Part shown: positions 3,042 to 58,774 of the stretch, one piece after another
Layout of the letters: each line of letters opens with the position of its first letter
Numbering within the stretch: position 1 is the first letter of the stretch
Made by a program: the position numbers and the translations under genes
Notes under the pieces: generated by a model
What the model saw: only the letters and a program-made list of their open reading frames with translations
Database searches by the model: none
What the model was told of the DNA's origin: nothing
From: a virus
Taxonomy: Duplodnaviria; Heunggongvirae; Uroviricota; Caudoviricetes
Length of the DNA: 64,000 nt
Direction: 5' to 3' (one strand)
IMG/VR virus record: IMGVR_UViG_3300008261_001827
Location: 44,894 to 108,893 of that record

Positions 3042-4706
3042 TTGCGTATCTTTGGCTTTGAGATAAAGAGAGACATCGGCGGTGCCGAAGAAGAAAAAGC
3101 TGTCTCCTTTGTAGAACCTAATAACGACGAAGGTGCGATCACCATAGGAAACTCTTTAGGAGGATCCTATGGTATCGCCATCAACATGGAAGGCGACGCC
3201 AAAACAGAAGGCGAACTCGTCACCAAGTATCGTGGAATGATGATGCAGCCAGAGATAGGTCAGGCAGTTGATGAGGTAGTTAACGAGGCGATCAATATTG
3301 ATACGCACGAAAACGCTGTAGAGGTAGTTCTAGACGACACTGAACTTCCTGATAAAGTAAAGGATCGAATCGTCGAAGAGTTTGAAGAAGTACTTCGTCT
3401 TCTTGACTTTTCGAACTATGGGTACGATATCTTTCAGAAGTTCTACGTAGACGGTCGTCTTAACTATCATATCATTATCGATAATGAAAACATTAAAGAC
3501 GGTATTAAAGAAATACGATACATCGATCCTCGCAAACTTCGTCTCGTAAAAGAAATGGACGAGAAGGCGAAAGATCCACATTCAGGTATTCCTCTTAAAA
3601 AGATTAAGAAAGAGTACTATCTCTATTCAGATGCTGGCTTTGGTTCGAAGTCAGTTTCAAACAACATTCATTCTGGGCAAACGGTACAAGGCTATCGCAT
3701 TGCGAAGGATTCCGTTGCTAGAGTAACGTCAGGACTAATGAATGAAACGAACTCATTGGTCCTATCGTATCTTCATCCTGCGATCAAACCGTTAAACCAA
3801 CTTCGTATGCTAGAAGATGCTACGGTTATCTATACGATCACCCGTGCTCCAGAAAGAAGAATATTCTATATCGACGTAGGACAACTTCCTAAAGCAAAGG
3901 CCGAGCAGTACCTACACGATATGATGACTCGTCATAAGAATAAACTTCAGTATGACTCTGATAGCGGCGACATTACAGACGGTCGCAAGTTTATGACTAT
4001 GACTGAAGACTTTTGGTTTCCTCGTAGAGGTGGCGAGAGATCAACTGAAGTTGATATTCTTGCGGGAGGAAGCGCACAGGCTCTTAGCCAAGATGAAAAC
4101 CTTCAGTACTTCCAAAGAAAACTGTATAAGTCTCTAAAGGTTCCGATATCTCGTCTAGAACCAGAAACTATGTATAGCTTTGGAAGAGTCTCAGAAACTA
4201 CACGTGACGAACTCAAGTTTGGCAAATTCATTCGCCGTCTAAGAGCTCGTTTCTCTGGTCTATTTGATCTTCTTCTAGAAAAGCAACTCATACTTAAAGG
4301 TATCCTAGATCCTGAAGAATGGGCTGAAGTTAAAGATAAGATCCGCTATGACTTTATGAAGGACAACTACTTTGAGGAACTCAAGCAGACTGAAATTCTT
4401 CGTGAAAAAGTCAATATGCTAAAGGATATAGAAGAGCAGATCGGTAAGTATTACTCTCGTGAGTGGGTCGTTAAGAATGTTCTGTTCATGACTGACGACG
4501 AAATGAGAGAGATGCAGAAACAGATGGATAAAGAGAAAGCAGCTGGTCTATACGATATAGAAATGCCTGGCGATCAACCACCTGACCAAGATCAACAGCC
4601 TCCTGCAGATCAACAGCAGCCTCCACAGGACGATCTAGAGGCAGAAGAATCATTAAAAGTTATAAATAACAGAATAAAACCATTCAAAAGAGGGCTCAAC
4701 AAATGA
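3042..4706 (+). CDS. gp20: Portal vertex protein (TTG start inferred; the true start may differ slightly)
   Basis: 554 aa, collinear with T4 gp20 (IKPLNQLRMLEDATVIYTITRAPERR, MTMTEDFW, TRDELKFGKFIRRL). Acidic Q/P-rich C-terminus. Confidence 0.88.
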   Translation: MRIFGFEIKRDIGGAEEEKAVSFVEPNNDEGAITIGNSLGGSYGIAINMEGDAKTEGELVTKYRGMMMQPEIGQAVDEVVNEAINIDTHENAVEVVLDDTELPDKVKDRIVEEFEEVLRLLDFSNYGYDIFQKFYVDGRLNYHIIIDNENIKDGIKEIRYIDPRKLRLVKEMDEKAKDPHSGIPLKKIKKEYYLYSDAGFGSKSVSNNIHSGQTVQGYRIAKDSVARVTSGLMNETNSLVLSYLHPAIKPLNQLRMLEDATVIYTITRAPERRIFYIDVGQLPKAKAEQYLHDMMTRHKNKLQYDSDSGDITDGRKFMTMTEDFWFPRRGGERSTEVDILAGGSAQALSQDENLQYFQRKLYKSLKVPISRLEPETMYSFGRVSETTRDELKFGKFIRRLRARFSGLFDLLLEKQLILKGILDPEEWAEVKDKIRYDFMKDNYFEELKQTEILREKVNMLKDIEEQIGKYYSREWVVKNVLFMTDDEMREMQKQMDKEKAAGLYDIEMPGDQPPDQDQQPPADQQQPPQDDLEAEESLKVINNRIKPFKRGLNK

Positions 4707-7018
4707 AGACTCTACGTCAGATAATATCAGAGGTCGCGCAGCCAAAGGCCGGTGACGAGAAAGATTTCAAAGATAAACATATCATTGATAAGGTAGATCA
4801 TCCTGTTGCCCCTGATCACGCGTTTACTGGAAATACAAAAAAGGCGCCTAAGCGCAGAGCAGACTACGATAAGGGCGAAGATGAGACTGTCTACGAAGGT
4901 AGCTTTGATGTTCCTACCGCTGAAGGTGGTGAGCACGATACCGAGGACAGCCATGTAAAGTATAAGAAGGGAAATAAGCCTTCTAAATCTGTTAACGAAG
5001 CAGTGTTTGTAATTCCTGAAGAAATCCTTGCAACTGAAAAGAATGCGTTCCACACCGCTGCTGCAAACGCTCACAAGTCAGGTGCAAAGCACTTTGCCTT
5101 TGGTGGCAAGAAGTATCCAGTCACGATGTCGAAGGATGCTGCTAGCACATTCGCTGGTAAGGGTTCCATGAAGAAGGAAGCAATGGATCCGGTCGGCAAA
5201 GAAGATGGTGACATTGATAACGACGGTGATAAGGATAAATCAGATAAGTATCTTCACAATCGTCGTAAAGCGATTGGCAAAGCTATTCGTAAAGAAGAAG
5301 TTGAACTCGACGAAGCAACCTTCTCTATGGATATCGATGGCAATTATAAGAAAAACGCCGCCTCAGGTGCGTTAAATGCAGGTCTTAAGATTAATTTTAA
5401 GCAGCACGGCGGTGCCACAGAAATGATTCTTATGGGTGATAAAGATAAGATTACAAAATTCTTAAAAGCTCGTAAGGTTCCATCTGCAGAAATAAACAAC
5501 GGTTTTGTAAAAGAAGAAGCCGAAGAACTCGATGAGATCTCTCGCGACCTTGCTCGTAGATATATTCGTAAAGTTGCTGACAAAACCAACACAGGCGAAT
5601 TAAGCACTAAGGAAGTCATGAAGCGTAGACCTGGTGTAAATCTTGCTGGCAAAAAAGCATACCCTGGGGTTGCTGGTGAACCAAAGGTTCGCGCTACCGA
5701 GAGTGTAGAGCTGGATGAAATTAGTAAGAAGACTCTTGGTTCATATATCAAGAAAGCTAATATAAGCGCTATGGATCAGGCTAGAAAGTCTGGAGAATAT
5801 AATAACCCAGATCAACCAAAGAATTTTAGCAAAGCTATGGACAGAATGCGCGGTATTAAAAAGGCAACTGATAAACTCGTTGCTAAAGAAGAAGTCGAAC
5901 AACTCGACGAGCTTTCTCCAAACACTCTACATAGCTACATCAAGAAAGCTGCTGGTAATATGGCAGGTAATGCTGCTGTTGCTGCTGCTCAGGCATCTTC
6001 ATCGATGAAGAAGTCAAGTCCAGATGTAAAGCGTAAGATCAAGAACCGTATGATGGGTATATCTGGCGCTTCTGGTCGTCTCGCTGATAAAGCAAACATG
6101 GCAGAAGACGCATACGAAGAAATTCCGATGATGATGAGCCAACTTGAGTTCATTTGCTACGCAGCGGAAGAGATCATGGACTACCTCGATATGGGGATAG
6201 ACCCAGAAGAGTGGTATCAAAACAAGCTATCAAATGCTTATCAGACAATGATGTCTCTATACTCTTATGCTCGTGGCGAGATGAGAATGACATCTAGATC
6301 TGGCGGAAGCGGATACTATGACGACATGTATGGAGAAGAAGTCGAGCAGATTGATGAGATTTCGCAAGACAAACTTCGCGACTATCACGCTGCGGCTGCT
6401 TTAGATCTTAAGAAGAAAAGAGAGAAGCTAGATAAAGGCACTCTAACTTCTAAAGACTATAAGCAAGGACAGAACCGTGTAACTGGCCTAAACAGATCCG
6501 CAAACAAGATGGAAGAAGTTGAACTCGAAGAAGATATAACAAAAATGTCTCACGGGCGTCTTAAGTGGCATATGAATAGTGGCGTACCACATGGTAGCTA
6601 CACTAAAGACGAAATGAAAAAAGAAAGAGATCGTCGTTTAAAGACAGATCCTATGGGCTATCGCTCAGCAAAGGCTGGTCTTAACGAAGTAACACATACT
6701 GCTCTTAAAAAGACTATTTCTTATACGGACTCACAAGGAAAGAGCAGAACGAGAAACGTTCCGATCTCAAACGTAGATCGCGATGCAGACGGTGAAGAAA
6801 AGATCCGAGAGTCTGTAGAACTTACAGAAGTATTCAACCAAGGTATCGTAAAACTTAAGGACGGATCATCTGTAATACTTAAGAAGGAAGACGCCGATCT
6901 TCTAAATCAAATGCTTAAGGATCTTTCTTCCGCAAATCGTAAAAAAATGGAAGAAGTCGCAATGAAAGATAAGACTGGATTTAACGAAATCCTTAGCTTT
7001 GCGAGGGAAGCACTATGA
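4703..7018 (+). CDS. Large repeat protein in the gp67/gp68 prohead-core slot; candidate polyprotein with about 8 gp21-type (L/I-x-E) repeat junctions
   Basis: 771 aa. Start overlaps the gp20 stop (ATGA). N-terminus MKTLRQIISE resembles a capsid-targeting leader. Repeated EEVELDE-[IL]S-xxx-L-xxY-IKKA modules about 70-100 aa apart. Confidence 0.6.
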   Translation: MKTLRQIISEVAQPKAGDEKDFKDKHIIDKVDHPVAPDHAFTGNTKKAPKRRADYDKGEDETVYEGSFDVPTAEGGEHDTEDSHVKYKKGNKPSKSVNEAVFVIPEEILATEKNAFHTAAANAHKSGAKHFAFGGKKYPVTMSKDAASTFAGKGSMKKEAMDPVGKEDGDIDNDGDKDKSDKYLHNRRKAIGKAIRKEEVELDEATFSMDIDGNYKKNAASGALNAGLKINFKQHGGATEMILMGDKDKITKFLKARKVPSAEINNGFVKEEAEELDEISRDLARRYIRKVADKTNTGELSTKEVMKRRPGVNLAGKKAYPGVAGEPKVRATESVELDEISKKTLGSYIKKANISAMDQARKSGEYNNPDQPKNFSKAMDRMRGIKKATDKLVAKEEVEQLDELSPNTLHSYIKKAAGNMAGNAAVAAAQASSSMKKSSPDVKRKIKNRMMGISGASGRLADKANMAEDAYEEIPMMMSQLEFICYAAEEIMDYLDMGIDPEEWYQNKLSNAYQTMMSLYSYARGEMRMTSRSGGSGYYDDMYGEEVEQIDEISQDKLRDYHAAAALDLKKKREKLDKGTLTSKDYKQGQNRVTGLNRSANKMEEVELEEDITKMSHGRLKWHMNSGVPHGSYTKDEMKKERDRRLKTDPMGYRSAKAGLNEVTHTALKKTISYTDSQGKSRTRNVPISNVDRDADGEEKIRESVELTEVFNQGIVKLKDGSSVILKKEDADLLNQMLKDLSSANRKKMEEVAMKDKTGFNEILSFAREAL

Positions 7019-7283: not shown

Positions 7284-7958
7284 ATGAAACTGATTACAGA
7301 AACAATCGAAGAAGTTCAAGTTGTCACTGAGGCAAACGAGAACGAGCCAAAGCAGTACTTCATCGAAGGTATCTTCATGCAGGGCGATATCAAGAATCGC
7401 AACGGACGCATATACCCTTCAACAATTCTTGAAAAAGAAATGATGAGATATGAGGATCAGTTCATCAAGACAAAGAGAGCTCTTGGCGAACTTGGACACC
7501 CAGACGGACCGCAGATAAACGGTGATCGTGTCTCTCACCTCATCACAGATATGAAGCGTGACGGATCGAACTTCGTTGGTAAAGCAAAGATACTTAGCAC
7601 ACCAATGGGTAACATCGTAAAAACTTTTATCGATGAAGGTGTAAAGGTTGGTGTATCTACTCGTGGTCTTGGTTCTGTTAAACCAACTAAAGAAGGTATC
7701 ATGGAAGTTCAGAACGACTTCCATCTTGCTACTGTAGATATCGTTACGGATCCTTCGGGTCCAAACTGTTTTGTTAACGGAATCATGGAAAATACAGAGT
7801 ATTTCTACGACATAGTTTCCGGAACTTGGAGAGCCCAGCAGATGATCGAAGAGGCCGTGAAGGAAGTGAAGAAAACGTATAAGAGAACTGAAAGAAAGAT
7901 TGACGAAGCGTTTGCTGCTCGTCTCTTTGAAAACTTCGTTCGTTCTCTGAAGAAATAA
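7284..7958 (+). CDS. gp21: Prohead core protease
   Basis: 224 aa. YFIEGIFMQ, RIYP..ILEKE, ALGELGHP and STRGLGS match T4 gp21. Confidence 0.9.
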   Translation: MKLITETIEEVQVVTEANENEPKQYFIEGIFMQGDIKNRNGRIYPSTILEKEMMRYEDQFIKTKRALGELGHPDGPQINGDRVSHLITDMKRDGSNFVGKAKILSTPMGNIVKTFIDEGVKVGVSTRGLGSVKPTKEGIMEVQNDFHLATVDIVTDPSGPNCFVNGIMENTEYFYDIVSGTWRAQQMIEEAVKEVKKTYKRTERKIDEAFAARLFENFVRSLKK

Positions 7959-7962
7959 GTTT

Positions 7963-7970
7963 TATAAATA
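7963..7970 (+). promoter_or_regulatory. T4-type late promoter TATAAATA upstream of gp22
   Basis: Exact TATAAATA. It overlaps the first in-frame ATG (7970), which argues for the ATG at 8009 as the real start. Confidence 0.55.
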
Positions 7971-8008
7971 TGGATATGAAACACGAATCCATTAAAAGGA
8001 GAGTAAAT

Positions 8009-8953
8009 ATGTCAAAGTTAGAAGAAAAATTTGTAAGCGATGACGGTGTCTCTACGGTTCCTGATGCTGTTACACCAGAAGGTGGAGAAGTTAAGGCACG
8101 TAGAGGAGACGTAAAGAAAGCTGTCGATCCAAAGGCAGGTTCTGTTGCAAAGCCTCCAGTTTCCGAGTCAGAAGAAACTGAAGAAGAAGTAATCGAAGAA
8201 GAAGTTGTTTCTATTGAAGAATCAATTTCTAGCATGTTCGAAGGTATCGATCTTTCAGAAGAATTCAGATCAAAGGTAACGCTCGTATTCGAAGCAGCTG
8301 TAAATGAAGCAGCTCAGATTCGTATAAACGAAGCAACCGCAGCTCTTGAAGAAGAATTCGAACAAAAGCTTACAGAATCCGTTAGCGAAGCTATGGATGA
8401 AATCGTAGAGAATCTAGACTCATACCTCGACTATGTAGTAGAAGAGTGGATGAAAGAGAACGAAGTTGCTATCGAAGCTGGTATCAAAGTTGAGATGGCT
8501 GAGTCCCTAATGAGTGGACTTAAAGAACTATTCACTGAGCACAACATCGATATCGACGATGAGACTCTAGATGTAGTTGCTGGCCTAGAAGAGCACAACG
8601 CTTCTCTAGCGGATCAGGCAAACGAAGTGATCAACGAAAACATCGAGCTTAAGAAGACTATTGTTGCTCTTAAGGCTGATAAAGTTTTTGAAGAAGTTTC
8701 AGAAGGACTCACCGTTTCTCAGAAAGAAAGACTAAGAGTTCTATCAGAAAAGCTTGACGCTGATAACGTCGATGGCTATAAGTCAGATCTTGAAACTCTT
8801 AAGGAATCTTTCTTTAAGACTAAGAAATCTCAAGTGATCAACGAAGAAGCAGAAGAAGTTCTTACTGAAGAAGTGGCAGTTAAAAAGCCAGCATCTTCGT
8901 ATTCAACCGTCAATGCCATCGTTGAAGCACTAAACAAGAAAACTGTTAAGTGA
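8009..8953 (+). CDS. gp22: Prohead core scaffold protein
   Basis: Highly acidic, coiled-coil-rich, about 315 aa. Lies between gp21 and gp23. SD AAGGAG 7 nt upstream of the ATG at 8009. Confidence 0.75.
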   Translation: MSKLEEKFVSDDGVSTVPDAVTPEGGEVKARRGDVKKAVDPKAGSVAKPPVSESEETEEEVIEEEVVSIEESISSMFEGIDLSEEFRSKVTLVFEAAVNEAAQIRINEATAALEEEFEQKLTESVSEAMDEIVENLDSYLDYVVEEWMKENEVAIEAGIKVEMAESLMSGLKELFTEHNIDIDDETLDVVAGLEEHNASLADQANEVINENIELKKTIVALKADKVFEEVSEGLTVSQKERLRVLSEKLDADNVDGYKSDLETLKESFFKTKKSQVINEEAEEVLTEEVAVKKPASSYSTVNAIVEALNKKTVK

Positions 8954-9011: not shown

Positions 9012-10322
9012 ATGAGTCAATCTAATAGAACTTTAGTCGAAAAGTGGGGTCCTCTTCTTGAGCACTCTTCATTCTCGCCAATCAAAGACGAGCACAGAAA
9101 AGCAGTAACTGCTACTCTACTCGAAAACACAGAAAAGGCACTTCTTGAGTCCGGCGACCAGTCAATCAACATGACTTCGCTCCTTCAAGAAGCTCCAACC
9201 AACTTCGCCGGAACCGGCGGTTTTGGTTCAAGCGCAGCTACACCACAAGCTGGTTACGACCCAATCCTCATCAGCCTAGTTCGTCGTTCCATGCCAAACC
9301 TAATGGCATACGACATTGCTGGTGTTCAGCCAATGACCGGCCCAACTGGTCTTATCTTCGCAATGCGTTCTAACTACAACGCAATGTCAGGTAACACCGC
9401 AGTAGAAGCTTTCTACGGCGAAGCTGACTCCGACTTCTCCGGTACAGGCACAATGGCTGGTACAACCGGTGGCGCTGCTACCGCAAACACCGGTACTGGT
9501 ATGACCACTGCAGCTGCTGAAGCTCTTGGCGACGGAAACGGAACCAACTTCGCACAGATGGCTCTTGCTATCGAAAAAGTTACCGTATCTGCAAAGAGCC
9601 GCGCGCTAAAAGCAGAATACACCACTGAACTTGCACAAGACCTTCGTGCTGTTCATGGTCTTGACGCAGAGTCCGAACTTGCTAACATTCTTCAGTCTGA
9701 AATCCTCGCAGAAATCAACCGTGAAGTTGTTCGCACAATCTATACCTCTGCTGTAACCGGTGCTGCAAACACTGCTGCTGCTGGCGTATTCGACCTTGAC
9801 GTTGACTCAAACGGCCGTTGGTCAGTTGAGAAGTTCAAGGGACTTATGTTCCAGATCGAACTTGAAGCTAATGCAATTGCAAAAGCTACTCGTAGAGGCA
9901 AGGGTAACATCGTGGTCTGTTCTTCTGACGTAGCTTCCGCTCTTCAGATGGCAGGTGTCCTCGATTATACACCAGCTCTCAACAGCAACGCTCTTAACGT
10001 AGACGATACCGGAAACACCTTCGCCGGTGTTCTAAACGGTCGCTACAGAGTTTATGTAGATCCATACGCTGGTGCAAACTACATGGTCGTAGGTTACAAG
10101 GGTGCATCTGCTTTCGACGCAGGTATCTTCTACTGCCCATACGTTCCACTACAGATGTACCGCGCTGTTGGTGAAGACAGCTTCCAGCCAAAGATCGGCT
10201 TCAAAACCCGCTACGGCATGGTTGCTAACCCATTCGCTTTCGGCCCAACCCGTAGCGAAGGTGCTCTTACTGCAAACAGCAACGTCTACTACAGACGCGT
10301 TAGAGTATCTAACCTATTCTAA
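9012..10322 (+). CDS. gp23: Major capsid protein
   Basis: 436 aa. VRRSMPNLMAYDIAGVQPM, SAKSRALKAEYTTELAQDLRAVHGLDAESEL, YRVYVDPYA and FKTRYG match T4 gp23. The N-terminal region contains LLE/LQE protease-site motifs. Confidence 0.95.
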   Translation: MSQSNRTLVEKWGPLLEHSSFSPIKDEHRKAVTATLLENTEKALLESGDQSINMTSLLQEAPTNFAGTGGFGSSAATPQAGYDPILISLVRRSMPNLMAYDIAGVQPMTGPTGLIFAMRSNYNAMSGNTAVEAFYGEADSDFSGTGTMAGTTGGAATANTGTGMTTAAAEALGDGNGTNFAQMALAIEKVTVSAKSRALKAEYTTELAQDLRAVHGLDAESELANILQSEILAEINREVVRTIYTSAVTGAANTAAAGVFDLDVDSNGRWSVEKFKGLMFQIELEANAIAKATRRGKGNIVVCSSDVASALQMAGVLDYTPALNSNALNVDDTGNTFAGVLNGRYRVYVDPYAGANYMVVGYKGASAFDAGIFYCPYVPLQMYRAVGEDSFQPKIGFKTRYGMVANPFAFGPTRSEGALTANSNVYYRRVRVSNLF

Positions 10323-18535: not shown

Positions 18536-18691
18536 TTAATCGTCAACCTTTTCGTCGAATCTGGATAATTTTTCAGCTGATTTCTTGCGACGCTGGTCAC
18601 GTCTACTCTGAAGTTTTCGATCTTTGTCACTAACGTCATCTTCCCACTCATCATCCCATTCTTCACGAAATTTCTTAAACGACTTAGCCAT
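18536..18691 (-). CDS. Small acidic-then-basic protein MAKSFKKFREEWDDEWEDD... (not in ORF track; under 60 aa)
   Basis: SD AAGAGGA 7 nt upstream. N-terminus matches the MKSFKQF leader family. Conflicts with the N-terminal extension of the HAD gene. Confidence 0.45.
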   Translation of the reverse strand: MAKSFKKFREEWDDEWEDDVSDKDRKLQSRRDQRRKKSAEKLSRFDEKVDD

Positions 18692-52047: not shown

Positions 52048-52197
52048 TTATTTCTCCTTGTGATTGAGTTTTAGTTCTTCATTATATTTCTTATTTAACT
52101 CAATATTCGTATTCATTTGTATTTCGTATGGATCGAAGTTATTTATGATATCTTGAACAAGTCTTTCGTTAAAGATCCTCATAAACAGCTTTATCAT
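52048..52197 (-). CDS. Small hypothetical protein (not in ORF track)
   Basis: 49-aa ORF, ATGA-coupled to the upstream gene. Confidence 0.35.
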   Translation of the reverse strand: MIKLFMRIFNERLVQDIINNFDPYEIQMNTNIELNKKYNEELKLNHKEK

Positions 52198-53045
52198 TTC
52201 TTTGTTTCTAGATGCTTCTTTGCGTCCGCTTCTGTATCGAATTCCTTGTAGTACTTACGATCCAGTGTATGAACTGCGTACTTTGCTTTCTTTGGAAACT
52301 TGTTGTAGACTTTAGTTACACGAAGATCTGAAGCTTCATCTAGTTCAGCTTCTTCTTTTGTAGCAAGAACTTTTGCTCTACCGGTCTGCTTAGCGAATGC
52401 TAGGTCACGACCAAACTTACGCTTACGATACTTATCGGAGCCATCGTCACCAGATGGTTGATCTGCGAATGCTTTCTGGCGATATGCGTCCAACTTCTTA
52501 TCAGAGACTTCGTCTAGCTCTACTGATTCTTTACGATTGTATACATATACATCGTGATGAGCCGCGTCTGCTTTTTGGATACGCTGATGCGAATGTCCGC
52601 CTGATTTTCCCGAAACGTCGCTATTTACACGTTTGCCATCTTTATATTGTGCGCTAGGTGCATCCTTAGAATACTTATGTGCATTAGGATTGTCTTTACC
52701 TAAACGACCCTGCAGCACAACCCGCTTACCGGTACCTTTTACAGACTGTTTAAGATCCGCCAATTTCTTTTCGGATGCAGCATCACCAGGTTTGTGAGTA
52801 AATTGATATGAGGAACTCTTGCGTTCTTCATCAAGTTCTGCTTCTTCTTTTCTCATTCCAGCTTCACGTTCAGCGCCAAGCTTAGCAGCAATAGCCATCT
52901 GCTGACGCTTCTTCTGAGACTTACCTTTAAATTGTGGAGCGTCCGAGTCTTGGAAGTCTTTTACCCAATCACCCATATCATCGGATGCTTTGAGTTTTTC
53001 TTCGAGCTCGATCGATTCTTGAATAAATTTAGAAAAGCGCTTCAT
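52194..53045 (-). CDS. Putative capsid-targeted internal protein with ELDE repeat junctions
   Basis: N-terminus MKRFSKFIQESIE. Three [AV]ELDE-[EVA]S repeats homologous to the modules of the 771-aa protein. Late promoter 29 nt upstream. Confidence 0.6.
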   Translation of the reverse strand: MKRFSKFIQESIELEEKLKASDDMGDWVKDFQDSDAPQFKGKSQKKRQQMAIAAKLGAEREAGMRKEEAELDEERKSSSYQFTHKPGDAASEKKLADLKQSVKGTGKRVVLQGRLGKDNPNAHKYSKDAPSAQYKDGKRVNSDVSGKSGGHSHQRIQKADAAHHDVYVYNRKESVELDEVSDKKLDAYRQKAFADQPSGDDGSDKYRKRKFGRDLAFAKQTGRAKVLATKEEAELDEASDLRVTKVYNKFPKKAKYAVHTLDRKYYKEFDTEADAKKHLETKK

Positions 53046-53073
53046 GGTTTCCTCTTGGTGAAAATCTGTTTAA

Positions 53074-53081
53074 TCTATTTA
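53074..53081 (-). promoter_or_regulatory. T4-type late promoter (TATAAATA on minus strand)
   Basis: Forward tatttata, 29 nt upstream of the 53045 ATG, with SD AAGAGGA in between. Confidence 0.5.
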
Positions 53082-53090
53082 TAAAAGTGT

Positions 53091-53615
53091 TTACCACTTT
53101 ACCTTGTCAGCCCAGTATGCAGCAGACATCTTACCCTTTGCAATGTTCTTTCCGTGGCGAGCTTTGAACGACTTTCTCTTCATCTTCATTCTCTCAGACT
53201 CGCCTTCTTTAGGATCGCCTGCCGTCTCTGCGCCCTGTTGACCGAAACGAATCGTCTTTACCTGATTGCCGTCCTTGGCGACCACGATATGACTCTTTTC
53301 TGGATGACTAGGAGTTGCTTTTGGTTTATTAAAACCTTGGACGCCAGCTCTCTCGATACGTGGATCTTTTTCTTCATCGAGATCAGCTTCTTCTTTAAGA
53401 CGCCCTGATTTGGTTCCATGATCGAAGTGTCCACGATTGTTACCTTGCTTGTCTTTAGCAATCTGGTATTTTGTCATTTCGCCGGATGGGTGTGTCATTG
53501 ATTTAACAACTAGTCCACGAGCCTTTGCTGAACTTTCCCATTCGGAAGCATTTTTAAATAGACCACCAACGTTTTCATCTATCTTAGCTTCTACGAACTG
53601 CTTGAAACTCTTCAT
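53091..53615 (-). CDS. Putative capsid-targeted internal protein (basic)
   Basis: N-terminus MKSFKQFVEAKIDE. 174 aa, Lys/Gly-rich. Contains an EADLDEE junction. Confidence 0.55.
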   Translation of the reverse strand: MKSFKQFVEAKIDENVGGLFKNASEWESSAKARGLVVKSMTHPSGEMTKYQIAKDKQGNNRGHFDHGTKSGRLKEEADLDEEKDPRIERAGVQGFNKPKATPSHPEKSHIVVAKDGNQVKTIRFGQQGAETAGDPKEGESERMKMKRKSFKARHGKNIAKGKMSAAYWADKVKW

Positions 53616-53905
53616 TTCATTAACCTTTCTACGGTTTCTATTGCTTTTTTACCATGAGGATGATGTGGATTAATACTAACAACGTCACCGTTCATTAGGT
53701 CTGATATGCTTGCGGCTTTACCTAATCCATCGATAGCTTTATGTAGTGGATCATTTTTATCATAAGTAACTTCGTAGTTCTTTTTTCCTCTAACTTCAAC
53801 CCAACTAGCCTGCTTTGAATCCTTTAGTTTCAACACATCAACATTCTTATCACGAATGTATTGAACAAAGTATGATTCTGATATGTATTCGCTAAACTTT
53901 AGCAT
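53612..53905 (-). CDS. Putative capsid-targeted internal protein (start uncertain: ATG at 53905, ATG at 53923 or TTG at 53932)
   Basis: Chosen start gives MLKFSEYISE, matching the leader family. Confidence 0.45.
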   Translation of the reverse strand: MLKFSEYISESYFVQYIRDKNVDVLKLKDSKQASWVEVRGKKNYEVTYDKNDPLHKAIDGLGKAASISDLMNGDVVSINPHHPHGKKAIETVERLMK

Positions 53906-53906
53906 C

Positions 53907-54284
53907 TTATCCGCCGAACTCATGGCCAGCAACGCGACGCATCTGCTTATTGAACTCAGCCTGTGATGGCTTTTCTTTATAGAGTTTGATCGAGATCTCA
54001 GGGCGTTCCTTGCCCTTGATGCGCCAGTTCATACCCTTTTCCTTGTGTTCAGGATCCGTTGTCTTTACAACACGGCGCTTGTAACCGGCTTCCCAAGTTT
54101 CCGAAGCTTCGGAAACGGCTGTGTCGCACTGACGACAACAATCAGGCGTTCCGCAGTTTACATGCTCGTTTACTGGAACGCAGTTAGGAACTTCTCTACC
54201 ATCTTTCATTTTCATACCTACTTGACGATATCCAACCCAGCAGGGTCCTTTGTTTTCTTCTAGAAATTTCTTAAACGATTTCAT
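53907..54284 (-). CDS. Putative capsid-targeted internal protein, Cys-rich
   Basis: N-terminus MKSFKKFLEENK. CVPVNEHVNCGTPDCCRQC cysteine cluster. Confidence 0.55.
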   Translation of the reverse strand: MKSFKKFLEENKGPCWVGYRQVGMKMKDGREVPNCVPVNEHVNCGTPDCCRQCDTAVSEASETWEAGYKRRVVKTTDPEHKEKGMNWRIKGKERPEISIKLYKEKPSQAEFNKQMRRVAGHEFGG

Positions 54285-54292
54285 TTTATTAC

Positions 54293-54826
54293 CTATTCTT
54301 CGTAATATGGGTTATTAGGATCTGCATCTTTAGTAACATCTGGCCACCAATCCAATTCAAATCTTTTTCCATCAGCAAACATTTTCTTCATTGATTTAAT
54401 ACGCTTTTCATATTCAGCTTTAGATGGTTTAACATTTCCTTCCACAACATCCATTACATACTGAAGAGTTACTGCGTTTGCACTAAGACTCGCGCATCTT
54501 CCTCCGACTTCGCCTTTAAGATGATCTATCAGTATGCTCTCGCTGCTCATTGCGAGAGCATTAGAGAGTTCGTGCGGTACCTTTAGATCTATATATGAAT
54601 AAACATAGTCATAGTGTGGTACAGGAGAAGCATGCAGAATGTATTCGTCTAACACTTCTACTCTCTTAAATCCATCTTTGTTATACCAAACGGCTCTCAT
54701 TTTTGTAAGTTCGTCAGGAAGGCCAAAGAAATTGGTAAGATGCATTACATACTCTGCGGGCTCGTCATTATTCCAGCGAGATAGGATATTACTAATATCG
54801 TTTGAAAACTGCTTAAACGACTTCAT
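54293..54826 (-). CDS. Putative capsid-targeted internal protein
   Basis: N-terminus MKSFKQFSNDIS. 177 aa. Confidence 0.55.
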   Translation of the reverse strand: MKSFKQFSNDISNILSRWNNDEPAEYVMHLTNFFGLPDELTKMRAVWYNKDGFKRVEVLDEYILHASPVPHYDYVYSYIDLKVPHELSNALAMSSESILIDHLKGEVGGRCASLSANAVTLQYVMDVVEGNVKPSKAEYEKRIKSMKKMFADGKRFELDWWPDVTKDADPNNPYYEE

Positions 54827-56154
54827 ACCTTTATCTCCGGGTTAGGTGTACGAAAATTCTTTTTTCTCATAATAGTCTTTGATATAACAACAAGTTCGTC
54901 ATTCTTACGATCGTATTCCACCGCTATCGGCATGTTAAGATCCGTCTGCATATCCTTAATGACAGCTTCGGCATCTACAAACTTACTTAATGATTTATCA
55001 CCGCCCTGATACTTCTTATAGATCTTCTGTATCATACCAGCAAGTTCTTTCATATCGATACATGGATCGTTACGAGAATCGGTCATACGTTCGCGGAAAT
55101 GCTTTGTGAATTCAAAGTTTACATTGAACCTTTTAAACATACGATCTACAAACTGTTCAAAAGCTTGCATGTGAGCGACTGTAAAGATAGGACATTGATC
55201 TGCTTCTAGTACTAACTCTTCTTTTAATCTATTAGTAATTTTTTTAAATCTACGAAATGCTTTTTCTTCAATTTGACTAACTCTAGAGATGCTAAGGTTT
55301 AACTCTTTTGCTATCTGTCCCAAGGTCATATTATCAACGAATCGCATTTTATATACTTCAAGTTCTCTATCTCTTGCGGCGGCGCTTTTAGCATCGCCTG
55401 GTTTTGTTTTCTTGTACATAGCTATTATCTTTTGCAAATCAATTTTAGAATCAATGCTAATAGCTTCATTAACTTTACGTTGAGCCTTTATCCACTCAGA
55501 AGCAGCAGAAGAAGCGGGTTTTGTCTTTGCCCAGCCTGCTATCTTTTTATATGTGGAAAGGACAGCACCTTCGTAGTTTGATCCTGTAGAATTATCTACG
55601 ATAAACATCTTCTGACGAAAGAAGTTCTGAAACTTTCCGAGGTTCTTTTGAACATCTTTCCACATTCTATTCACTTCAGAATCTGATAATGATCTTTCTC
55701 TCTTTCTATTACGATCGAGCGCAGTGTCAAGATCTGTGTTCACAAATATCATAGCAACTTCGTATCCAATACCACGAAGCATATCAGCTTGCTTTTGTAT
55801 CTTTTCGTAGTCCTTACCGGTTCCATCAATCACTAGACCAAGGCGACCGTCAATCGCAAGTTGCATCATTTTCGTGGTAAGAGCCTTCGCCTGTCCACGT
55901 ACTTCTTGACCCTTTGGAGAATAGATATCTTCAGGAGTCGGTTTTAGACCAACTTTCTTTAGAGCATTTTCGAACGCGATGTCTGAGTTAATCACTTTAA
56001 AACCAAGAGATGTAAGAGCAGTTCTGCCAACTATAAAAGACTTGCCGGATCCTGGACCACCAGCAAGAAAGATTGCTTTGAAGATGGAAGGGTCGTTAAC
56101 TCCTTCGTTAATGAACTGCTTAAAACTTAGCACTTTATTCACCACCGTTTCCAT
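54823..56154 (-). CDS. P-loop kinase (zeta/Pnk/AAA_33-like) fused to a sigma70 region-4-like HTH, with leader motif (alternative GTG start at 56133)
   Basis: FLAGGPGSGKSF Walker A. MTLGQIAKELNLSISRVSQIEEKAFRRFKK resembles sigma70 region 4.2. Residues 9-18 read LSFKQFINEG. Confidence 0.6.
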   Translation of the reverse strand: METVVNKVLSFKQFINEGVNDPSIFKAIFLAGGPGSGKSFIVGRTALTSLGFKVINSDIAFENALKKVGLKPTPEDIYSPKGQEVRGQAKALTTKMMQLAIDGRLGLVIDGTGKDYEKIQKQADMLRGIGYEVAMIFVNTDLDTALDRNRKRERSLSDSEVNRMWKDVQKNLGKFQNFFRQKMFIVDNSTGSNYEGAVLSTYKKIAGWAKTKPASSAASEWIKAQRKVNEAISIDSKIDLQKIIAMYKKTKPGDAKSAAARDRELEVYKMRFVDNMTLGQIAKELNLSISRVSQIEEKAFRRFKKITNRLKEELVLEADQCPIFTVAHMQAFEQFVDRMFKRFNVNFEFTKHFRERMTDSRNDPCIDMKELAGMIQKIYKKYQGGDKSLSKFVDAEAVIKDMQTDLNMPIAVEYDRKNDELVVISKTIMRKKNFRTPNPEIKV

Positions 56155-58738
56155 CGCCCCCGTCTGAACTACTGCTCTTGCCAGGAGGCATCTTTCTCAT
56201 AGTTCCGTCAGCCATACGAATAGCCACATTTTTAATCTTTATCTTCTTTCCTTCAAAGCCCATAGCAGTTGCTTCTAGTACGTCCTGTATTACGTCGCCA
56301 TCAGAAAGAGCTGCATCGTAGTGTCTAACTTTGAATAACTTTCCATCTTCGTCACGAACTCTTAGCCAAGCAACGTCTCCACCGATTACAGTACCCATGC
56401 GCGCTGCGCCGTCAAACATATCCATAGAATGACGATTAAAACGAACAGTGTCACCTCTTTTGAAAGGACCGTATGTATCAGTTAACATAAACTCCTTTAG
56501 GGATTTCTGACCAGGAGTATCTTTCTTATAGGTCTTTACGACACTATCCGTTCCCTGTTCTCTTTTACTTGGGTCGGGGTTGCCTTCGCTAATAGATTTA
56601 GTTAGACTCTTTTTTGCTGCTGCGTCTCTTGACTTTGCAGCATCAAGCATACGATCGTGCTTTCTTGCGTCGGCTTCTTTTTCCTGTGCAATCTTCATCT
56701 TCATCTTTGAAGTTTCTACATTCTCAAATGCATGGCCAATACGAGTATGTTTTACTTCGCCAGATAGCTTCTTTTGCATAACGCGAGTCATATTCTTCTT
56801 TTCGGTTCCAGTGATTTCATCTGGTGTTCCTTTTTCAAATCTATCAATGTCGCCATCAACATCTAAGTCAATAGACTTCATTGCGTGCTGACCCATCTGA
56901 GCAGCAGATAATCCAATGCCAAGTTTGTGCTTAAGACCCTTTGAAACCTTTACTGATTTGTCTGGAGTTTTTGTATGAACAAACGGATGAACCGCTGTTG
57001 GTGAAACGGCTTCACTTCTTACTTTTGCTGCAAGATCTGAGTCTGCCTTACCCCAAGTACCCTTACCCTTTGTTGCGAATGAATTCACTCGTGCAAATCC
57101 CCACTGAGTAGGAGTGGTTCCTGGTCTATGACCGGTTCTCCAAGCAGCAACACCACGATCAAACACCTTCTTAAGAATACCATAAGAGATGCCTGATTTC
57201 TCAGCCTTCTTCTTTAGTCCTTCCGATGGATCTGATTCCATTAGAGCATCAAACTCTTCAGAGAACACGAAATCTTCCATCGCATTCATGAGTTCGTATA
57301 CTTCTTCTGCAATATACTCTTGGCTTTCGTTTATATCTTTCTTCGTCTTATACATCTTAAAGCGTTTGTCAAACTTAACGGATCCGTTCTTTTCGAGAGC
57401 CATGTGTGGACGACTACGTACTTTAGTGTCTGCGAGTGAAGCCTCCTGTAGAGACTCTCCAAACATCTGCTTAAACTTCTTCGTATGAACAGAAGTTTTT
57501 GTCTTTGCTTCGGCGTCACCAGGTGCTGGTTTATATGAAGACTGTTCATCATCACTCTTTTTCGAATATGTAGCAAAATGACGAGCACGAGCAGCTTTCG
57601 TATCTTTATCTAACCCGGCATAATAACCCTTTGGTTGAGAACCCGGAAGATGCTTTACATCTTTATCCTGTGGCTTTATCGTTCTTTCATCTAGAAATGC
57701 TTCAAACATTTCGTTCTTATCTTGATTAGGAGAAAGAACGCTCTGTAGTCTTTCTCTCTCAGCAGATCTTATCTGTGGTAGTAATTTAGTAGCGATACGA
57801 GAGATAACCGCCTTTGGTATCTTCATAACTCTCTTATCCAATGCAATCTTTTCGGCAGGCGTCATCTCTGAATACTTCTTATTCTTCATAAGACGATCAC
57901 GAATAAACTCAAGAGCTCTCTTCCTCGATCTCTTGAGTAGCTTTTCCTTCGGAGCCATCTTTCTTTTTGCTCTCTCACGAGCAGCCATTATCTTTGTTCT
58001 GTAGCGCTTCATAACCAGACCACGCTTGCGTCTCTGAGCAAGAGTAAGTGGTTCCGCTTCCGATAATGTTTCTTCGTTGATGTTCTCTGACATATTCATT
58101 CCGCCTCTAACAAGGTTATATACTTTCTCAGCTGAAGATTTTAGTTTACTAGGTAGTCCATTCTTAAATGCTTCCATATTACCCTGAGCTGCAAGTGATC
58201 TCATCTTTGAAGCAGACATCCCAGTAACGTCATCTGCGTCAGGATCTCTTTCACCTGCTGATATAACTGATATGCTTTCGAAATTAAACTCTTTTCCGTT
58301 ATAGCGGTTTAGTAGAGTTTCAAACTCGCCGACTCTATCGGATCCTACGACTATGACTAGATCCGAATACTTTCCGGATAGTTCCTTAGAAACCTCAATG
58401 ATCGTTTTTGCTGTAGACTTTTTGACCGGCTTGCCAAAAGCTTTCTGTGCAAGTGATAGCTTTTCTTCATACGATAGTGGATTCTTTTTAGCATCCTGAG
58501 AGTGCGACATGTAGATGGCCGGATCGGCCTTTCTCTTTATCGCTTCCGATACTACTTTATTTACTAGCTTTTCGTGTCCGACGGTGATAGGATTGAACCT
58601 TCCAAAACTAATCACTGCCGTTCTCTTTACGGCTTCGGTCATAGTTGGTTCTGTTTCTATGTATTTAGTAGGATCGAATTCTTTAAAGCTCTTACGATCC
58701 TTCTTCTTTGGATCAATCTTTTTCTTATCGTCGTCCAT
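56135..58738 (-). CDS. 867-aa multidomain protein with N-terminal HxGH nucleotidyltransferase (NMNAT/PPAT-like) domain
   Basis: GRFNPITVGHEKLV (HxGH) and GMSASKMR (ISSTxxR-like) motifs. KSFKEF near the N-terminus. Late promoter 29 nt upstream. Internal HRPG motif (AAWRTGHRPGTTPTQWGFARVNSF). Confidence 0.65.
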   Translation of the reverse strand: MDDDKKKIDPKKKDRKSFKEFDPTKYIETEPTMTEAVKRTAVISFGRFNPITVGHEKLVNKVVSEAIKRKADPAIYMSHSQDAKKNPLSYEEKLSLAQKAFGKPVKKSTAKTIIEVSKELSGKYSDLVIVVGSDRVGEFETLLNRYNGKEFNFESISVISAGERDPDADDVTGMSASKMRSLAAQGNMEAFKNGLPSKLKSSAEKVYNLVRGGMNMSENINEETLSEAEPLTLAQRRKRGLVMKRYRTKIMAARERAKRKMAPKEKLLKRSRKRALEFIRDRLMKNKKYSEMTPAEKIALDKRVMKIPKAVISRIATKLLPQIRSAERERLQSVLSPNQDKNEMFEAFLDERTIKPQDKDVKHLPGSQPKGYYAGLDKDTKAARARHFATYSKKSDDEQSSYKPAPGDAEAKTKTSVHTKKFKQMFGESLQEASLADTKVRSRPHMALEKNGSVKFDKRFKMYKTKKDINESQEYIAEEVYELMNAMEDFVFSEEFDALMESDPSEGLKKKAEKSGISYGILKKVFDRGVAAWRTGHRPGTTPTQWGFARVNSFATKGKGTWGKADSDLAAKVRSEAVSPTAVHPFVHTKTPDKSVKVSKGLKHKLGIGLSAAQMGQHAMKSIDLDVDGDIDRFEKGTPDEITGTEKKNMTRVMQKKLSGEVKHTRIGHAFENVETSKMKMKIAQEKEADARKHDRMLDAAKSRDAAAKKSLTKSISEGNPDPSKREQGTDSVVKTYKKDTPGQKSLKEFMLTDTYGPFKRGDTVRFNRHSMDMFDGAARMGTVIGGDVAWLRVRDEDGKLFKVRHYDAALSDGDVIQDVLEATAMGFEGKKIKIKNVAIRMADGTMRKMPPGKSSSSDGGDGNGGE

Positions 58739-58766: not shown

Positions 58767-58774
58767 TATTTATA
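58767..58774 (-). promoter_or_regulatory. T4-type late promoter (TATAAATA on minus strand)
   Basis: Forward tatttata, 29 nt upstream of the 58738 ATG, with SD AGAGGG in between. Same spacing as the 53074 copy. Confidence 0.5.

What the first reader, a model, noticed from the sequence alone, without database searches (positions are those of the whole stretch)
52194..58738. Late-gene cluster of seven proteins that all start with a T4 internal-protein-like capsid-targeting leader (MKSFKQF..E)
Seven adjacent minus-strand genes show the leader:
- 53091-53615: MKSFKQFVEAKIDE
- 53907-54284: MKSFKKFLEENK
- 54293-54826: MKSFKQFSNDIS
- 52194-53045: MKRFSKFIQESIE
- 53612-53905: MLKFSEYISE
- 54823-56154: LSFKQFINEG, after an in-frame GTG
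- 56135-58738: KSFKEF near its N-terminus

T4 IPI, IPII and IPIII begin MKTYQEFIAE. That leader directs them into the prohead core and is removed by gp21 after Glu. The leaders here have the same length, the same K2, aromatic 4, F7 and E9/10, and the same hydrophobic periodicity.

The cluster is served by two T4-type late promoters (58767 and 53074), and gp21 is present in the window.

The cargo is unusually diverse: a Cys-cluster protein, basic proteins, a kinase-HTH fusion and an 867-aa nucleotidyltransferase protein. This suggests an arsenal of head-packaged proteins injected with the DNA.
Basis: partly seen in the sequence, partly recalled or inferred. Interest (0 to 1): 0.85.

Follow-up and report, generated by a model that had tools for sequence, protein, structure and literature searches.

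The report
Head-packaging leader on seven phage proteins
An uncultured T4-like phage has a late operon of unrelated proteins that all carry the short N-terminal tag T4 uses to load "internal proteins" into its head. This suggests the phage packs enzymes and other effectors with its DNA for delivery into the host.

Summary
Seven adjacent minus-strand genes (52194-58738) carry a T4-type capsid-targeting-sequence (CTS) leader. Six have it at the N-terminus; in the 867-aa protein it starts at residue 16.

A rule taken only from T4 mutagenesis (aromatic at 4 and 7, I/L/V/M at 8, E at 10) hits 5 of 1463 candidate starts in the window. Four are in the cluster, and shuffles give none. T4 IPI (MKTFKEF...) is the closest match.

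The cargo regions are unrelated to each other. The cluster has only two promoters, both TATAAATA late promoters. The window also encodes the T4-type S77 protease, gp22 scaffold, portal and capsid protein, and the capsid's L-x-E|A cleavage site is conserved.

Relatives carry the same leader on at least 12 cargo families. Modules that follow a leader in one phage follow an internal [LIVM]-x-E linker in another, which suggests protease-cut polyproteins.

Homologues of the nucleotidyltransferase in three cultured cyanophages have the leader and were detected in purified virions by published mass spectrometry.

Packaging, cleavage and injection remain untested for this phage. I rate it a new variant of a known system, interest 0.6.

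The parts
58767..58774 (-). T4-type late promoter core TATAAATA, 28 nt upstream of the c7 ATG. It serves c7 through c2, which are tightly packed or overlapping.
   Evidence: 12 sites in the window against 3.07 expected, and the others sit in front of the sheath, p771, gp21, gp22 and capsid genes; no excess of sigma-70-like promoters and no minus-strand terminators inside the cluster.
56135..58738 (-). c7, 867 aa, pI 9.7. It has a 15-aa N-terminal extension, then a leader-like KSFKEF (nt 58676-58693). An NMNAT/cytidylyltransferase-like domain (about residues 36-222), DUF5824 (511-568) and a C-terminal region follow. [LI]-x-E sites lie at the domain borders: INE222, LSE227, LME501, LKE749.
   Evidence: The domain is 33% identical (E 1e-26) to the virion protein S-CREM2 gp154.
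54823..56133 (-). c6, 436 aa from the GTG start, leader (M)LSFKQFINE. It has a P-loop kinase domain (AAA_33 / Zeta_toxin), a sigma-70 region 4 helix-turn-helix, and a C-terminal domain that starts right after ...LVLE|ADQ.
   Evidence: L001 orthologue.
54293..54826 (-). c5, 177 aa, the only acidic member (pI 5.1), leader MKSFKQFSND with D at position 10. The model is confident and the fold weakly resembles YbjN / type III secretion chaperones.
53907..54284 (-). c4, 125 aa, leader MKSFKKFLEE. It has a CWxGY...PNCVP module, an NCGTPDCCRQC Cys cluster (6 Cys) and a basic C-terminal module that stands alone behind a leader in relatives.
53612..53905 (-). c3, 97 aa, leader MLKFSEYISE, no known family.
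   Evidence: Identical in L001.
53091..53615 (-). c2, 174 aa, leader MKSFKQFVEA (IDE at 14). An N-terminal module is followed by the linker EEADLDE (nt 53373-53390) and then the phrog_7595 domain (residues 85-174). In relatives that domain follows a leader directly.
53076..53083 (-). Second TATAAATA late promoter, 30 nt upstream of the c1 ATG.
52194..53045 (-). c1, 283 aa, basic, leader MKRFSKFIQE. Three E[AV]ELDE linkers (nt 52827-52844, 52509-52526, 52335-52352) divide it into four modules. It is a partial paralogue of p771.
   Evidence: (27% over 254 aa, E 8.6e-9).
4703..7018 (+). p771, a 771-aa protein between the portal and protease genes with its own TATAAATA (4661-4668). It has the aliphatic leader variant MKTLRQIISE and seven E[AV]E.LDE-type linkers. 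It is probably a head-core or internal polyprotein.
7284..7958 (+). Prohead serine protease (T4 gp21 homologue), the presumed processing enzyme.
   Evidence: phrog_207, E 6e-73; Peptidase_S77, E 9.5e-36.
7970..8953 (+). Scaffolding core protein (T4 gp22 homologue), the presumed docking partner of the leader.
   Evidence: (T4_CASP, E 7e-64).
9012..10322 (+). Major capsid protein. Its ...SLLQE|APT aligns with the T4 gp23 maturation site LTE65|A66, which indicates the same L-x-E specificity.

Best explanation
The cluster encodes head-internal (ejection) proteins of a distant T4-like myovirus. Each cargo is fused to a roughly 10-residue capsid-targeting sequence homologous to the leaders of T4 IPI, IPII and IPIII.

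Proposed sequence of events:
1. Late in infection the two TATAAATA promoters express the genes.
2. The leader, through the aromatic residues at positions 4 and 7, docks each protein onto the gp22-type scaffolding core, so the capsid shell assembles around it.
3. The S77 prohead protease cuts after Glu in [I/L/V]-x-E. This removes the leader and, in multi-module proteins (c1, c2, probably c6 and c7, and p771), cuts the internal ELDE-type linkers to release separate modules.
4. The mostly basic mature proteins stay with the DNA and leave the head with it at the next infection. They act before any phage gene is expressed.

The cargo includes an NMNAT-like nucleotidyltransferase, a P-loop kinase fused to sigma region 4, a Cys-cluster protein and others.

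Shown here: the motif and its non-randomness, late promoters, the protease, scaffold and capsid-site context, unrelated cargo, the same tag on many cargo families in relatives, and linker/leader equivalence at module junctions.

Shown by others: virion association of leader-bearing homologues of one cargo family.

Inferred: docking, cleavage, ejection and the functions in the host.
For: 1. Motif statistics.
2. Match to T4 leaders read from NC_000866 and to the T4 residue roles: 4 and 7 for targeting, 8 and 10 for processing, and D10 blocks processing but not targeting (PMC9026906).
3. Selection acts on the peptide, not the DNA: Ser3 is encoded by AGT, TCG and AGC, and Phe and Lys codons vary.
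4. Cargo regions show no mutual similarity, apart from c1 and p771.
5. TATAAATA is enriched 4-fold and sits in front of the head and tail genes and the cluster. There are no other promoter or terminator signals.
6. S77 protease, gp22 scaffold, gp20 and gp23 are present. The capsid cleavage site is conserved.
7. In 80 related loci (1.03 Mb) there are 107 leader hits, all on the cluster strand, against 2-4 in shuffles. They fall on at least 12 cargo clusters.
8. By the regexes, 93 of 117 c5 homologues with complete N-termini keep a leader, while the spacer behind it varies and sometimes holds extra modules.
9. 42 of 63 internal junctions homologous to post-leader positions have [LIVM]xE at the boundary; random positions give 9.5 +/- 2.9.
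10. The E[AV]E.LDE linker occurs 11 times in all six frames, only in p771, c1 and c2.
11. [quoted passage not shown]
Against: - There is no direct evidence for this phage.
- The c7 leader is internal and lacks I-x-E.
- c5 has D10 and no early cleavage site.
- The mass-spectrometry support covers one cargo family only, with 2-3 peptides each. The authors themselves allow for carry-over of abundant proteins.
- The phiM12 homologue (gp159) has no leader and is not annotated as a virion protein, although a neighbouring gene is.
- One kinase homologue with a leader (L020) sits among replication genes without TATAAATA.
- A 51-aa ORF with MAKSFKKF lies in an early-type region.
- Residues after the ELDE linkers are also conserved (DE[IV]S...L..Y..KA), so the linkers could be a structural repeat rather than only cleavage sites.
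- The 80 loci were retrieved partly with a peptide pattern that overlaps the kinase leader, and the junction contexts are not phylogenetically independent.
Confidence: 0.72

Rival explanations
1. The proteins are targeted into the prohead, but mainly as core, scaffold or DNA-condensing material. They would be cut into small peptides and lost or kept as counter-ions, like T4 gp22, gp67 and gp68, rather than acting as injected effectors. This fits c1, c2 and p771 best.
For: c1 and p771 are cut by 3 and 7 linkers into modules of 60-100 aa and are paralogues. p771 occupies the position of T4 genes 67 and 68, between portal and protease. Most members are very basic.
Against: c6 and c7 carry recognisable enzyme and DNA- or RNAP-binding domains. 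The modules after the linkers are conserved folded domains that stand alone in other phages. Tryptic peptides of the NMNAT-like homologues survive in mature virions (PMC10665884, PMC9146016, PMC9602691).
Confidence: 0.15
2. The shared N-terminus is not a packaging signal. It would serve another purpose, such as efficient translation initiation, a recombination joint for gene shuffling, or a generic amphipathic helix, and the proteins would act in the infected cell late in infection.
For: MK... starts are common in highly expressed genes. The motif also occurs on a small ORF in an early-type region and on a kinase homologue among replication genes.
Against: Conservation is at the amino-acid level, with synonymous and cross-family codon changes. 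The conserved positions are exactly the T4 targeting and processing residues. The same boundary motif recurs internally at module junctions, where translation initiation is irrelevant. Homologues are found in purified virions.
Confidence: 0.08
3. The leaders are remnants of tandem gene duplication (a paralogous family), or a chance resemblance.
For: The genes are adjacent and on the same strand.
Against: c2-c7 show no pairwise similarity beyond the leader. Shuffles give 0 hits. The leader is attached to at least 12 unrelated cargo families in relatives.
Confidence: 0.02

Closest known systems
T4 internal proteins IPI, IPII and IPIII and their capsid targeting sequence (Mullaney & Black 1996; reviewed in PMC9026906 and PMC3012670)
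   Same: A 10-residue N-terminal leader M-K-(T/S)-(Y/F)-x-(E/Q)-F-(I/L/V)-x-E. Late expression. A gp21 (S77) protease and gp22 core are present. Cargo proteins are unrelated and share only the leader. Most are basic.
   Different: The host phage is only about 44% identical to T4 in the capsid protein and groups with the Kyanoviridae / phiM12-like phages. The cargo is much larger (up to 867 aa) and multi-domain, with recognisable enzymes. Internal protease-type linkers are present. Seven tagged genes sit in one operon, whereas the T4 ip genes are scattered.
Hypervariable internal-protein loci of T-even phages (Repoila et al. 1994, as cited in PMC3012670 and PMC9026906)
   Same: Clusters of diverse ORFs that share only a CTS-like N-terminus, interpreted as an arsenal against host defences.
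   Different: Those were described only for close T4 relatives with small proteins. Here the same principle extends to marine and environmental T4-like lineages and to polyprotein architectures.
T4 Alt, and the ejection proteins of phiKZ / SPN3US giant phages (PMC5694885)
   Same: Enzymes packaged in the head through propeptides and processed after Glu by an S77-family protease, sometimes at several sites.
   Different: The giant-phage propeptides are 100+ residues and the motif is A/S-x-E. The Alt leader differs. Here the short T4 IP-type tag is used.
Polyvalent proteins of phages and conjugative elements (Iyer et al. 2017, PMC5512222)
   Same: Multi-domain proteins predicted to be virion-delivered. 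They combine kinase (zeta-like), nucleotidyltransferase, nuclease and DNA-binding modules that shuffle between genomes.
   Different: Here the modules are spread over several genes, each with its own CTS, or are joined by [LIV]-x-E linkers suited to the prohead protease. Classical polyvalent proteins carry their own peptidase domains or MuF/portal fusions. Hits to the polyvalent-specific Pfam domains are below threshold.
Virion-associated NMNAT-like / cytidylyltransferase proteins of T4-like cyanophages (PMC9602691, PMC10665884, PMC9146016)
   Same: The c7 N-terminal domain is homologous. The gene neighbourhood is the same. The leader is present.
   Different: I found no mention of a targeting leader or a packaging route in the passages of those papers I read. 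c7 is a much longer fusion with an N-terminal extension.

Membership tests
T4-type CTS-bearing internal (head-packaged) proteins | An N-terminal leader of about 10 residues with hydrophobic or aromatic residues at positions 4 and 7 (targeting determinants) | tested here: met
   F/F or F/Y at positions 4 and 7 in c1-c6. In c7 the motif is internal (residues 15-21). p771 has L4 and I7.
T4-type CTS-bearing internal (head-packaged) proteins | Processing determinants: I/L/V at position 8 and Glu at position 10, the gp21 site [L/I]-x-E | tested here: inconclusive
   Met in c1 (IQE), c3 (ISE), c4 (LEE) and c6 (INE). c2 has VE at 8-9 and IDE at 14. c5 has S8 and D10, which from T4 data predicts targeting without processing. 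c7 lacks the site at the leader.
T4-type CTS-bearing internal (head-packaged) proteins | Late-gene expression | tested here: met
   TATAAATA lies 28-30 nt upstream of c7 and c1. The same element precedes the sheath, p771, protease, scaffold and capsid genes. This is sequence-level evidence only.
T4-type CTS-bearing internal (head-packaged) proteins | Co-occurrence with a T4-type prohead protease (S77) and a gp22 scaffolding core that share the Glu-specific maturation chemistry | tested here: met
   Peptidase_S77 and T4_CASP hits. The capsid LLQE|A aligns with T4 LTE65|A66. The T4 cleavage position is taken from established knowledge.
T4-type CTS-bearing internal (head-packaged) proteins | Cargo proteins unrelated to each other except for the leader | tested here: met
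   All-against-all BLASTP without the leaders finds nothing significant among c2-c7.
T4-type CTS-bearing internal (head-packaged) proteins | Physical presence in the mature head, with the N-terminus removed after Glu | not testable with these tools
   Indirect only. Leader-bearing homologues of c7 were detected in purified virions of three cyanophages (PMC10665884, PMC9146016, PMC9602691). No N-terminal mapping is available.
T4-type CTS-bearing internal (head-packaged) proteins | Ejection into the host with the DNA | not testable with these tools
   No data.
Polyvalent proteins (Iyer et al. 2017) | Two or more effector-type domains in one polypeptide, drawn from the polyvalent domain repertoire, encoded with head-morphogenesis genes | tested here: inconclusive
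   c6 has kinase, sigma region 4 and C-terminal domains. c7 has nucleotidyltransferase, DUF5824 and C-terminal domains. The Zeta_toxin hit is above the cut-off. ART-PolyVal (E 0.026) and MuF_C (E 0.011) are below it. The cluster is about 45 kb from the head genes.
Cyanophage virion-associated NMNAT-like cytidylyltransferase | Sequence homology of the nucleotidyltransferase domain and conserved synteny with the MALWG head protein and DUF7207 genes | tested here: met
   33% identity over 209 aa (E 1e-26) to S-CREM2 gp154. phrog_3041 and phrog_395 hits. Synteny.

The most novel reading that the evidence does not exclude
The T4 capsid-targeting tag, together with [LIV]-x-E protease linkers, may form a conserved, sequence-readable grammar across the whole T4 superfamily, including the abundant marine cyano-, pelagi- and methylophage myoviruses. 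Under this reading any protein module can be loaded into the head and released there as a separate effector, so these would be polyvalent proteins processed by the prohead protease. The injected proteome of uncultured phages could then be read from the genome. It would include an NAD-salvage-type nucleotidyltransferase, a kinase fused to a sigma region 4 mimic, a ligase-like enzyme and a secretion-chaperone-like protein, all delivered before any phage gene is expressed.
Probability: 0.35. Interest if true: 0.8.

Novelty: new variant of a known kind. Interest (0 to 1): 0.6.

Why it matters
- Several cyanophage studies found NMNAT-like enzymes in virion proteomes and treated their presence there as uncertain. 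A conserved T4-type targeting tag offers a mechanism for how they get in, which I did not see proposed in the passages I read.
- The tag turns "which proteins does this phage inject?" into a question that can be asked of sequence alone, for thousands of uncultured T4-like phages.
- The leader/linker equivalence suggests that the prohead protease also works as a polyprotein-processing enzyme for effectors. That would link the T4 internal-protein concept with the polyvalent-protein concept.
- The tag is also a candidate tool for loading foreign proteins into marine phage heads.

Tried and rejected
- Megablast of the cluster against 50,697 phage records found nothing, so no close cultured relative exists.
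- Pfam, PHROGs and NCBIfam gave nothing for c1, c3 and c5, and only sub-threshold polyvalent-domain hits for c2 and c6.
- c6 and c7 have no sequence relatives in the PDB.
- I looked for peptide-level mass-spectrometry data to map N-termini in the S-CREM2 supplement. None is held.
- Literature searches for a CTS described in cyanophages or other distant T4-likes found nothing. The library is incomplete, so prior description cannot be excluded.
- The idea that the motif is a DNA or RNA signal was rejected because of the synonymous codon variation.
- Sigma-70 promoter and terminator scans showed no enrichment.
- The fifth rule hit, at 29889, is an internal GTG of a 212-aa ORF and was dismissed.
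- The 51-aa and 49-aa small ORFs have no homologues in the fetched loci.


Full report
WHAT IS THERE

The window comes from an uncultured T4-like myovirus. Its major capsid protein (9012-10322) is 60-66% identical to those of Sinorhizobium phages phiM12/phiN3, Methylophilales phage Melnitz, Stenotrophomonas phage DLP_6 and the cyanomyoviruses. It is about 44% identical to T4 gp23. No phage record matches the cluster at the DNA level.

The plus-strand head module holds these genes:
- sheath
- portal (Portal_T4)
- a 771-aa ORF, here called p771
- prohead protease (Peptidase_S77)
- scaffold (T4_CASP)
- capsid protein (Gp23)

The finding lies about 45 kb away on the minus strand. Seven back-to-back ORFs run from 58738 down to 52194. 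I call them c7 to c1 in transcription order.

THE OBSERVATION

| Gene | Leader |
|---|---|
| c1 | MKRFSKFIQE |
| c2 | MKSFKQFVEA |
| c3 | MLKFSEYISE |
| c4 | MKSFKKFLEE |
| c5 | MKSFKQFSND |
| c6 | (M)LSFKQFINE |
| c7 | KSFKEF, at residues 16-21 |

- c6 starts from a GTG one base after the c7 stop. The 86%-identical orthologue in L001 begins MIRFKKFISE at its own ATG, which supports that start.
- c7 has a good Shine-Dalgarno sequence and ATG at 58738, so its 15-residue extension is real.

The strict motif K[STR]F[KS][QKE]F occurs six times in the six-frame translation. All six are on the minus strand and five are in the cluster.

To avoid circularity I built a rule only from published T4 genetics. 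Residues 4 and 7 drive targeting, and residues 8 and 10 drive processing (PMC9026906). The rule ^M..[FYW]..[FYW][ILVM].E hits 5 of all 1463 candidate start codons. Four are in the cluster, and 30 codon shuffles gave none.

I read the T4 leaders from NC_000866. IPII and IPIII begin MKTYQEFIAE. IPI is in fact the closest match to MKSFKQF and KSFKEF.

Conservation is at the peptide level. Ser3 uses AGT, TCG and AGC, and Phe and Lys codons vary. Without the leaders, c2-c7 share no detectable similarity. Only c1 resembles p771 (27% over 254 aa, E 8.6e-9).

EXPRESSION AND MACHINERY

TATAAATA occurs 12 times in the window against 3.07 expected. It sits directly upstream of the sheath, p771, protease, scaffold and capsid genes. 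On the minus strand it lies at 58767-58774 (before c7) and 53076-53083 (before c1).

Inside the cluster there is no excess of sigma-70-type promoters and no minus-strand terminator. Genes c7-c2 overlap or are at most 8 nt apart. This looks like a late operon plus one separately promoted late gene.

The T4 gp23 maturation site LTE65|A66 (position from established knowledge) aligns with SLLQE|APT in the window's capsid protein. S61, L63, E65 and A66 are invariant. The S77 protease therefore very probably keeps the [L/I]-x-E|specificity that the leaders match.

COMPARATIVE EVIDENCE

A scan of IMG/VR with the kinase c6 gave 80 related loci, 1.03 Mb in total. In them the T4-derived rule, allowing a register shift of one residue, hits 107 candidate starts. 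All are on the strand of the cluster, and shuffles give 2-4.

The 70 distinct proteins fall into at least 12 cargo clusters:
- kinase
- cytidylyltransferase
- an ATP-dependent-ligase-like 409-aa protein
- 444-aa and 96-aa families
- the phrog_7595 domain
- the c4 C-terminal module
- others

Caveat: one of the retrieval patterns overlapped the kinase leader, so the kinase hits are partly circular. The other families are not.

Cultured relatives also carry leader-like N-termini in the syntenic region:
- Melnitz: MQGFKTFLSE, MKKFSEIIEA, MKNFKNHIAEE
- HTVC008M: MKSFKDFQNVNE, MKTFTDFSTD
- DLP_6: MMKFTQFLAE, MKNIKDILEA

Among the 120 listed cluster representatives homologous to c5 (59-94% identity), 117 have complete N-termini:
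- 77 have the aromatic leader.
- 16 have an aliphatic, one-residue-shorter variant (MKINEIITE type).
- Most of the remaining 24 are near-variants.

The spacer behind the leader varies and sometimes holds extra modules (CWxGY...C, or a Cys-rich module). The leader is therefore a separable, selectively maintained unit.

LINKERS

The motif E[AV]E.LDE ([EDS][AV][ED][EQ]?[LI][DETQ]E) occurs 11 times in all six frames of the window. Seven are in p771, three in c1 and one in c2. All contain [L/I]-x-E.

In c2 the linker (...EEADLDEE|KDPRIERAG...) directly precedes a 90-residue domain. That domain is a stand-alone protein in many podo- and siphophages. In relatives it follows a leader directly (MLKFKAFLEE|KDPRLARAG...).

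I generalised this test. For every leader-bearing protein I asked where its first 60 post-leader residues align inside other proteins.
- Of 63 distinct internal junctions, 42 have an [LIVM]-x-E ending within -6 to +3 of the boundary, and 20 end exactly at it.
- Random internal positions give 9.5 +/- 2.9, with a maximum of 20 in 1000 trials.
- Examples: kinase domain ...SAQLEE|GINDP...TLKIE|GVNDP; DUF5824 ...EISE|DATAS...DITE|SAESA. In c7 itself the boundary is ...DALME|SDPSEG.

In c6 and c7, [LIV]-x-E sites coincide with domain borders: LVLE|ADQ before the c6 C-terminal domain, and INE222/LSE227 after the c7 nucleotidyltransferase domain.

The simplest reading is that the leader end and the linkers are equivalent protease sites, and that these are polyproteins cut inside the prohead. 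Two caveats apply. The junctions are not phylogenetically independent. Residues after the ELDE linkers are also conserved, so a structural-repeat role is not excluded.

EXPERIMENTAL SUPPORT FROM THE LITERATURE

Three independent virion proteomes of cultured T4-like cyanophages detected the NMNAT-like / cytidylyltransferase protein in CsCl-purified particles:

| Phage and protein | Source | Mass-spectrometry detail |
|---|---|---|
| S-CREM2 ORF154 | PMC10665884, | 3 peptides; neighbours ORF155, 156 and 160 also detected |
| S-SZBM1_140 | PMC9146016, | 2 peptides; neighbour _139 also detected |
| S-SCSM1 ORF91 | PMC9602691, | neighbours 89, 90, 92 and 93 annotated as virion proteins |

I fetched these genes and read their N-termini:
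- S-CREM2 gp154: MKNFSSFLTE|ADE
- S-SZBM1_140: MRFRQFIIE|AVA
- S-SCSM1_91: MKSFLQFLKE|AAE

S-CREM2 gp154 and S-SCSM1_91 have an ATAAATA element upstream; none was found in the 70 nt upstream of S-SZBM1_140.

S-CREM2 gp154 is 33% identical to c7 (E 1e-26).

The block is syntenic with the window. It lies just upstream of the MALWG head protein (window 51741-52046) and the DUF7207 gene (51363-51737).

I saw no mention of a targeting leader in the passages of these papers that I read, and my literature searches found no description of a CTS outside close T4 relatives and giant phages. The library is incomplete.

CARGO

| Protein | Content |
|---|---|
| c7 | NMNAT/cytidylyltransferase-like domain, DUF5824, C-terminal region |
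| c6 | P-loop kinase (AAA_33, Zeta_toxin), sigma-70 region 4, C-terminal domain with a sub-threshold MuF_C hit |
| c4 | Cys-rich |
| c1-c3 | Basic, without known families |

All except c5 have pI 9.1-9.8, like the DNA-associated T4 IPs. What these proteins do in the host is speculation.

MECHANISM AND CONFIDENCE

Best explanation (0.72): late expression, CTS-mediated docking on the gp22 core, encapsidation, S77 cleavage after the leader and at the linkers, retention with the DNA and ejection at the next infection.

Rivals:
- Packaged, but as degradable core or DNA-condensing material rather than effectors. This is most plausible for c1, c2 and p771 (0.15).
- The leader has another role and the proteins are not packaged (0.08).
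- Paralogy or chance (0.02).

Points against the main reading:
- The internal, site-less leader of c7.
- D10 in c5. From T4 data this predicts targeting without processing.
- The leaderless phiM12 homologue, which is not annotated as a virion protein.
- A leader-bearing kinase among replication genes in L020 without TATAAATA.
- A 51-aa ORF with MAKSFKKF in an early-type region.
- The thin mass-spectrometry support (2-3 peptides, one cargo family).

NOVELTY

The principle is textbook for T4 and its close relatives: diverse internal proteins that share only a CTS and form a variable anti-host arsenal (PMC3012670, PMC9026906). What appears new:
- The same tag is conserved in a lineage as distant as the Kyanoviridae / phiM12-like phages.
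- It sits on large enzymes and multi-module proteins.
- Internal linkers are equivalent to the leader's cleavage site.
- It offers a mechanism for the unexplained presence of NMNAT-like enzymes in cyanophage virions.

I rate it a new variant of a known kind, interest 0.6.

Noticed in passing
window 4703-7018 (+): A 771-aa protein between the portal and prohead protease genes with its own TATAAATA. It has the aliphatic leader variant MKTLRQIISE and seven E[AV]E.LDE linkers, each followed by a repeated DE[IL]S...L..Y..KA motif. c1 is its partial paralogue. It is probably a head-core polyprotein.
   Followed up: partly
window 18536-18691 (-): A 51-aa ORF, MAKSFKKFREEWDDEWEDD..., carries the KSFKKF motif outside the cluster. 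It lies among early-type genes (RNase H, PhoH), has no TATAAATA nearby and has no homologue in the fetched loci. It is either an eighth small tagged peptide or a counter-example.
   Followed up: partly
window 52048-52197 (-): A 49-aa ORF, MIKLFMRIFNE..., overlaps the c1 stop (ATGA). A similar N-terminus (MIKLFRTYIQE) heads a 123-aa ORF in L026. It may be a further leader-bearing member.
   Followed up: partly
[not shown]
   Followed up: partly
L003 5290-6519, L012 2469-3725, L022 360-1583, L088 4146-5381; L086 21478-22671: Relatives attach the leader to an ATP-dependent-ligase-like protein of about 409 aa (KxDG motif), for example MINFSNFITEE|KNTHM.... The S-SZBM1_141 orthologue starts MA|KNTHLEHLED exactly at the post-leader position, without a leader.
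   Followed up: partly
window 7963-7970 / 7970-8953 (+): A TATAAATA overlaps the first ATG of the scaffold ORF, so the true start is probably a downstream Met (about 8009).
   Followed up: no
window 58778-63925 (-): Directly upstream of the cluster on the same strand lies a sugar-modification cassette. It has two GT29 (sialyltransferase-like) genes and a GT8 gene (Pfam). By eye it also has an SDR, a sugar-nucleotide dehydratase-like gene and an aminotransferase-like gene.
   Followed up: partly
window 53612-53905 versus L001 6624-6914: c3 is 100% identical at the protein level to its L001 counterpart, although the neighbouring genes are only about 86% identical. This suggests recent exchange of this single module.
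   Followed up: no
L020 10001-10666: A kinase homologue with the leader MDDFKTFIQE lies among replication genes (clamp, clamp loader, gp46/47-like) with no TATAAATA upstream.
   Followed up: partly
window 49925-50809 (-): A likely endolysin with a sub-threshold chitinase class I-like hit (E 0.0019, below Pfam's cut-off) and a C-terminal PG_binding_1 domain. An Rz-like spanin lies downstream of the cluster (49099-49677).
   Followed up: no
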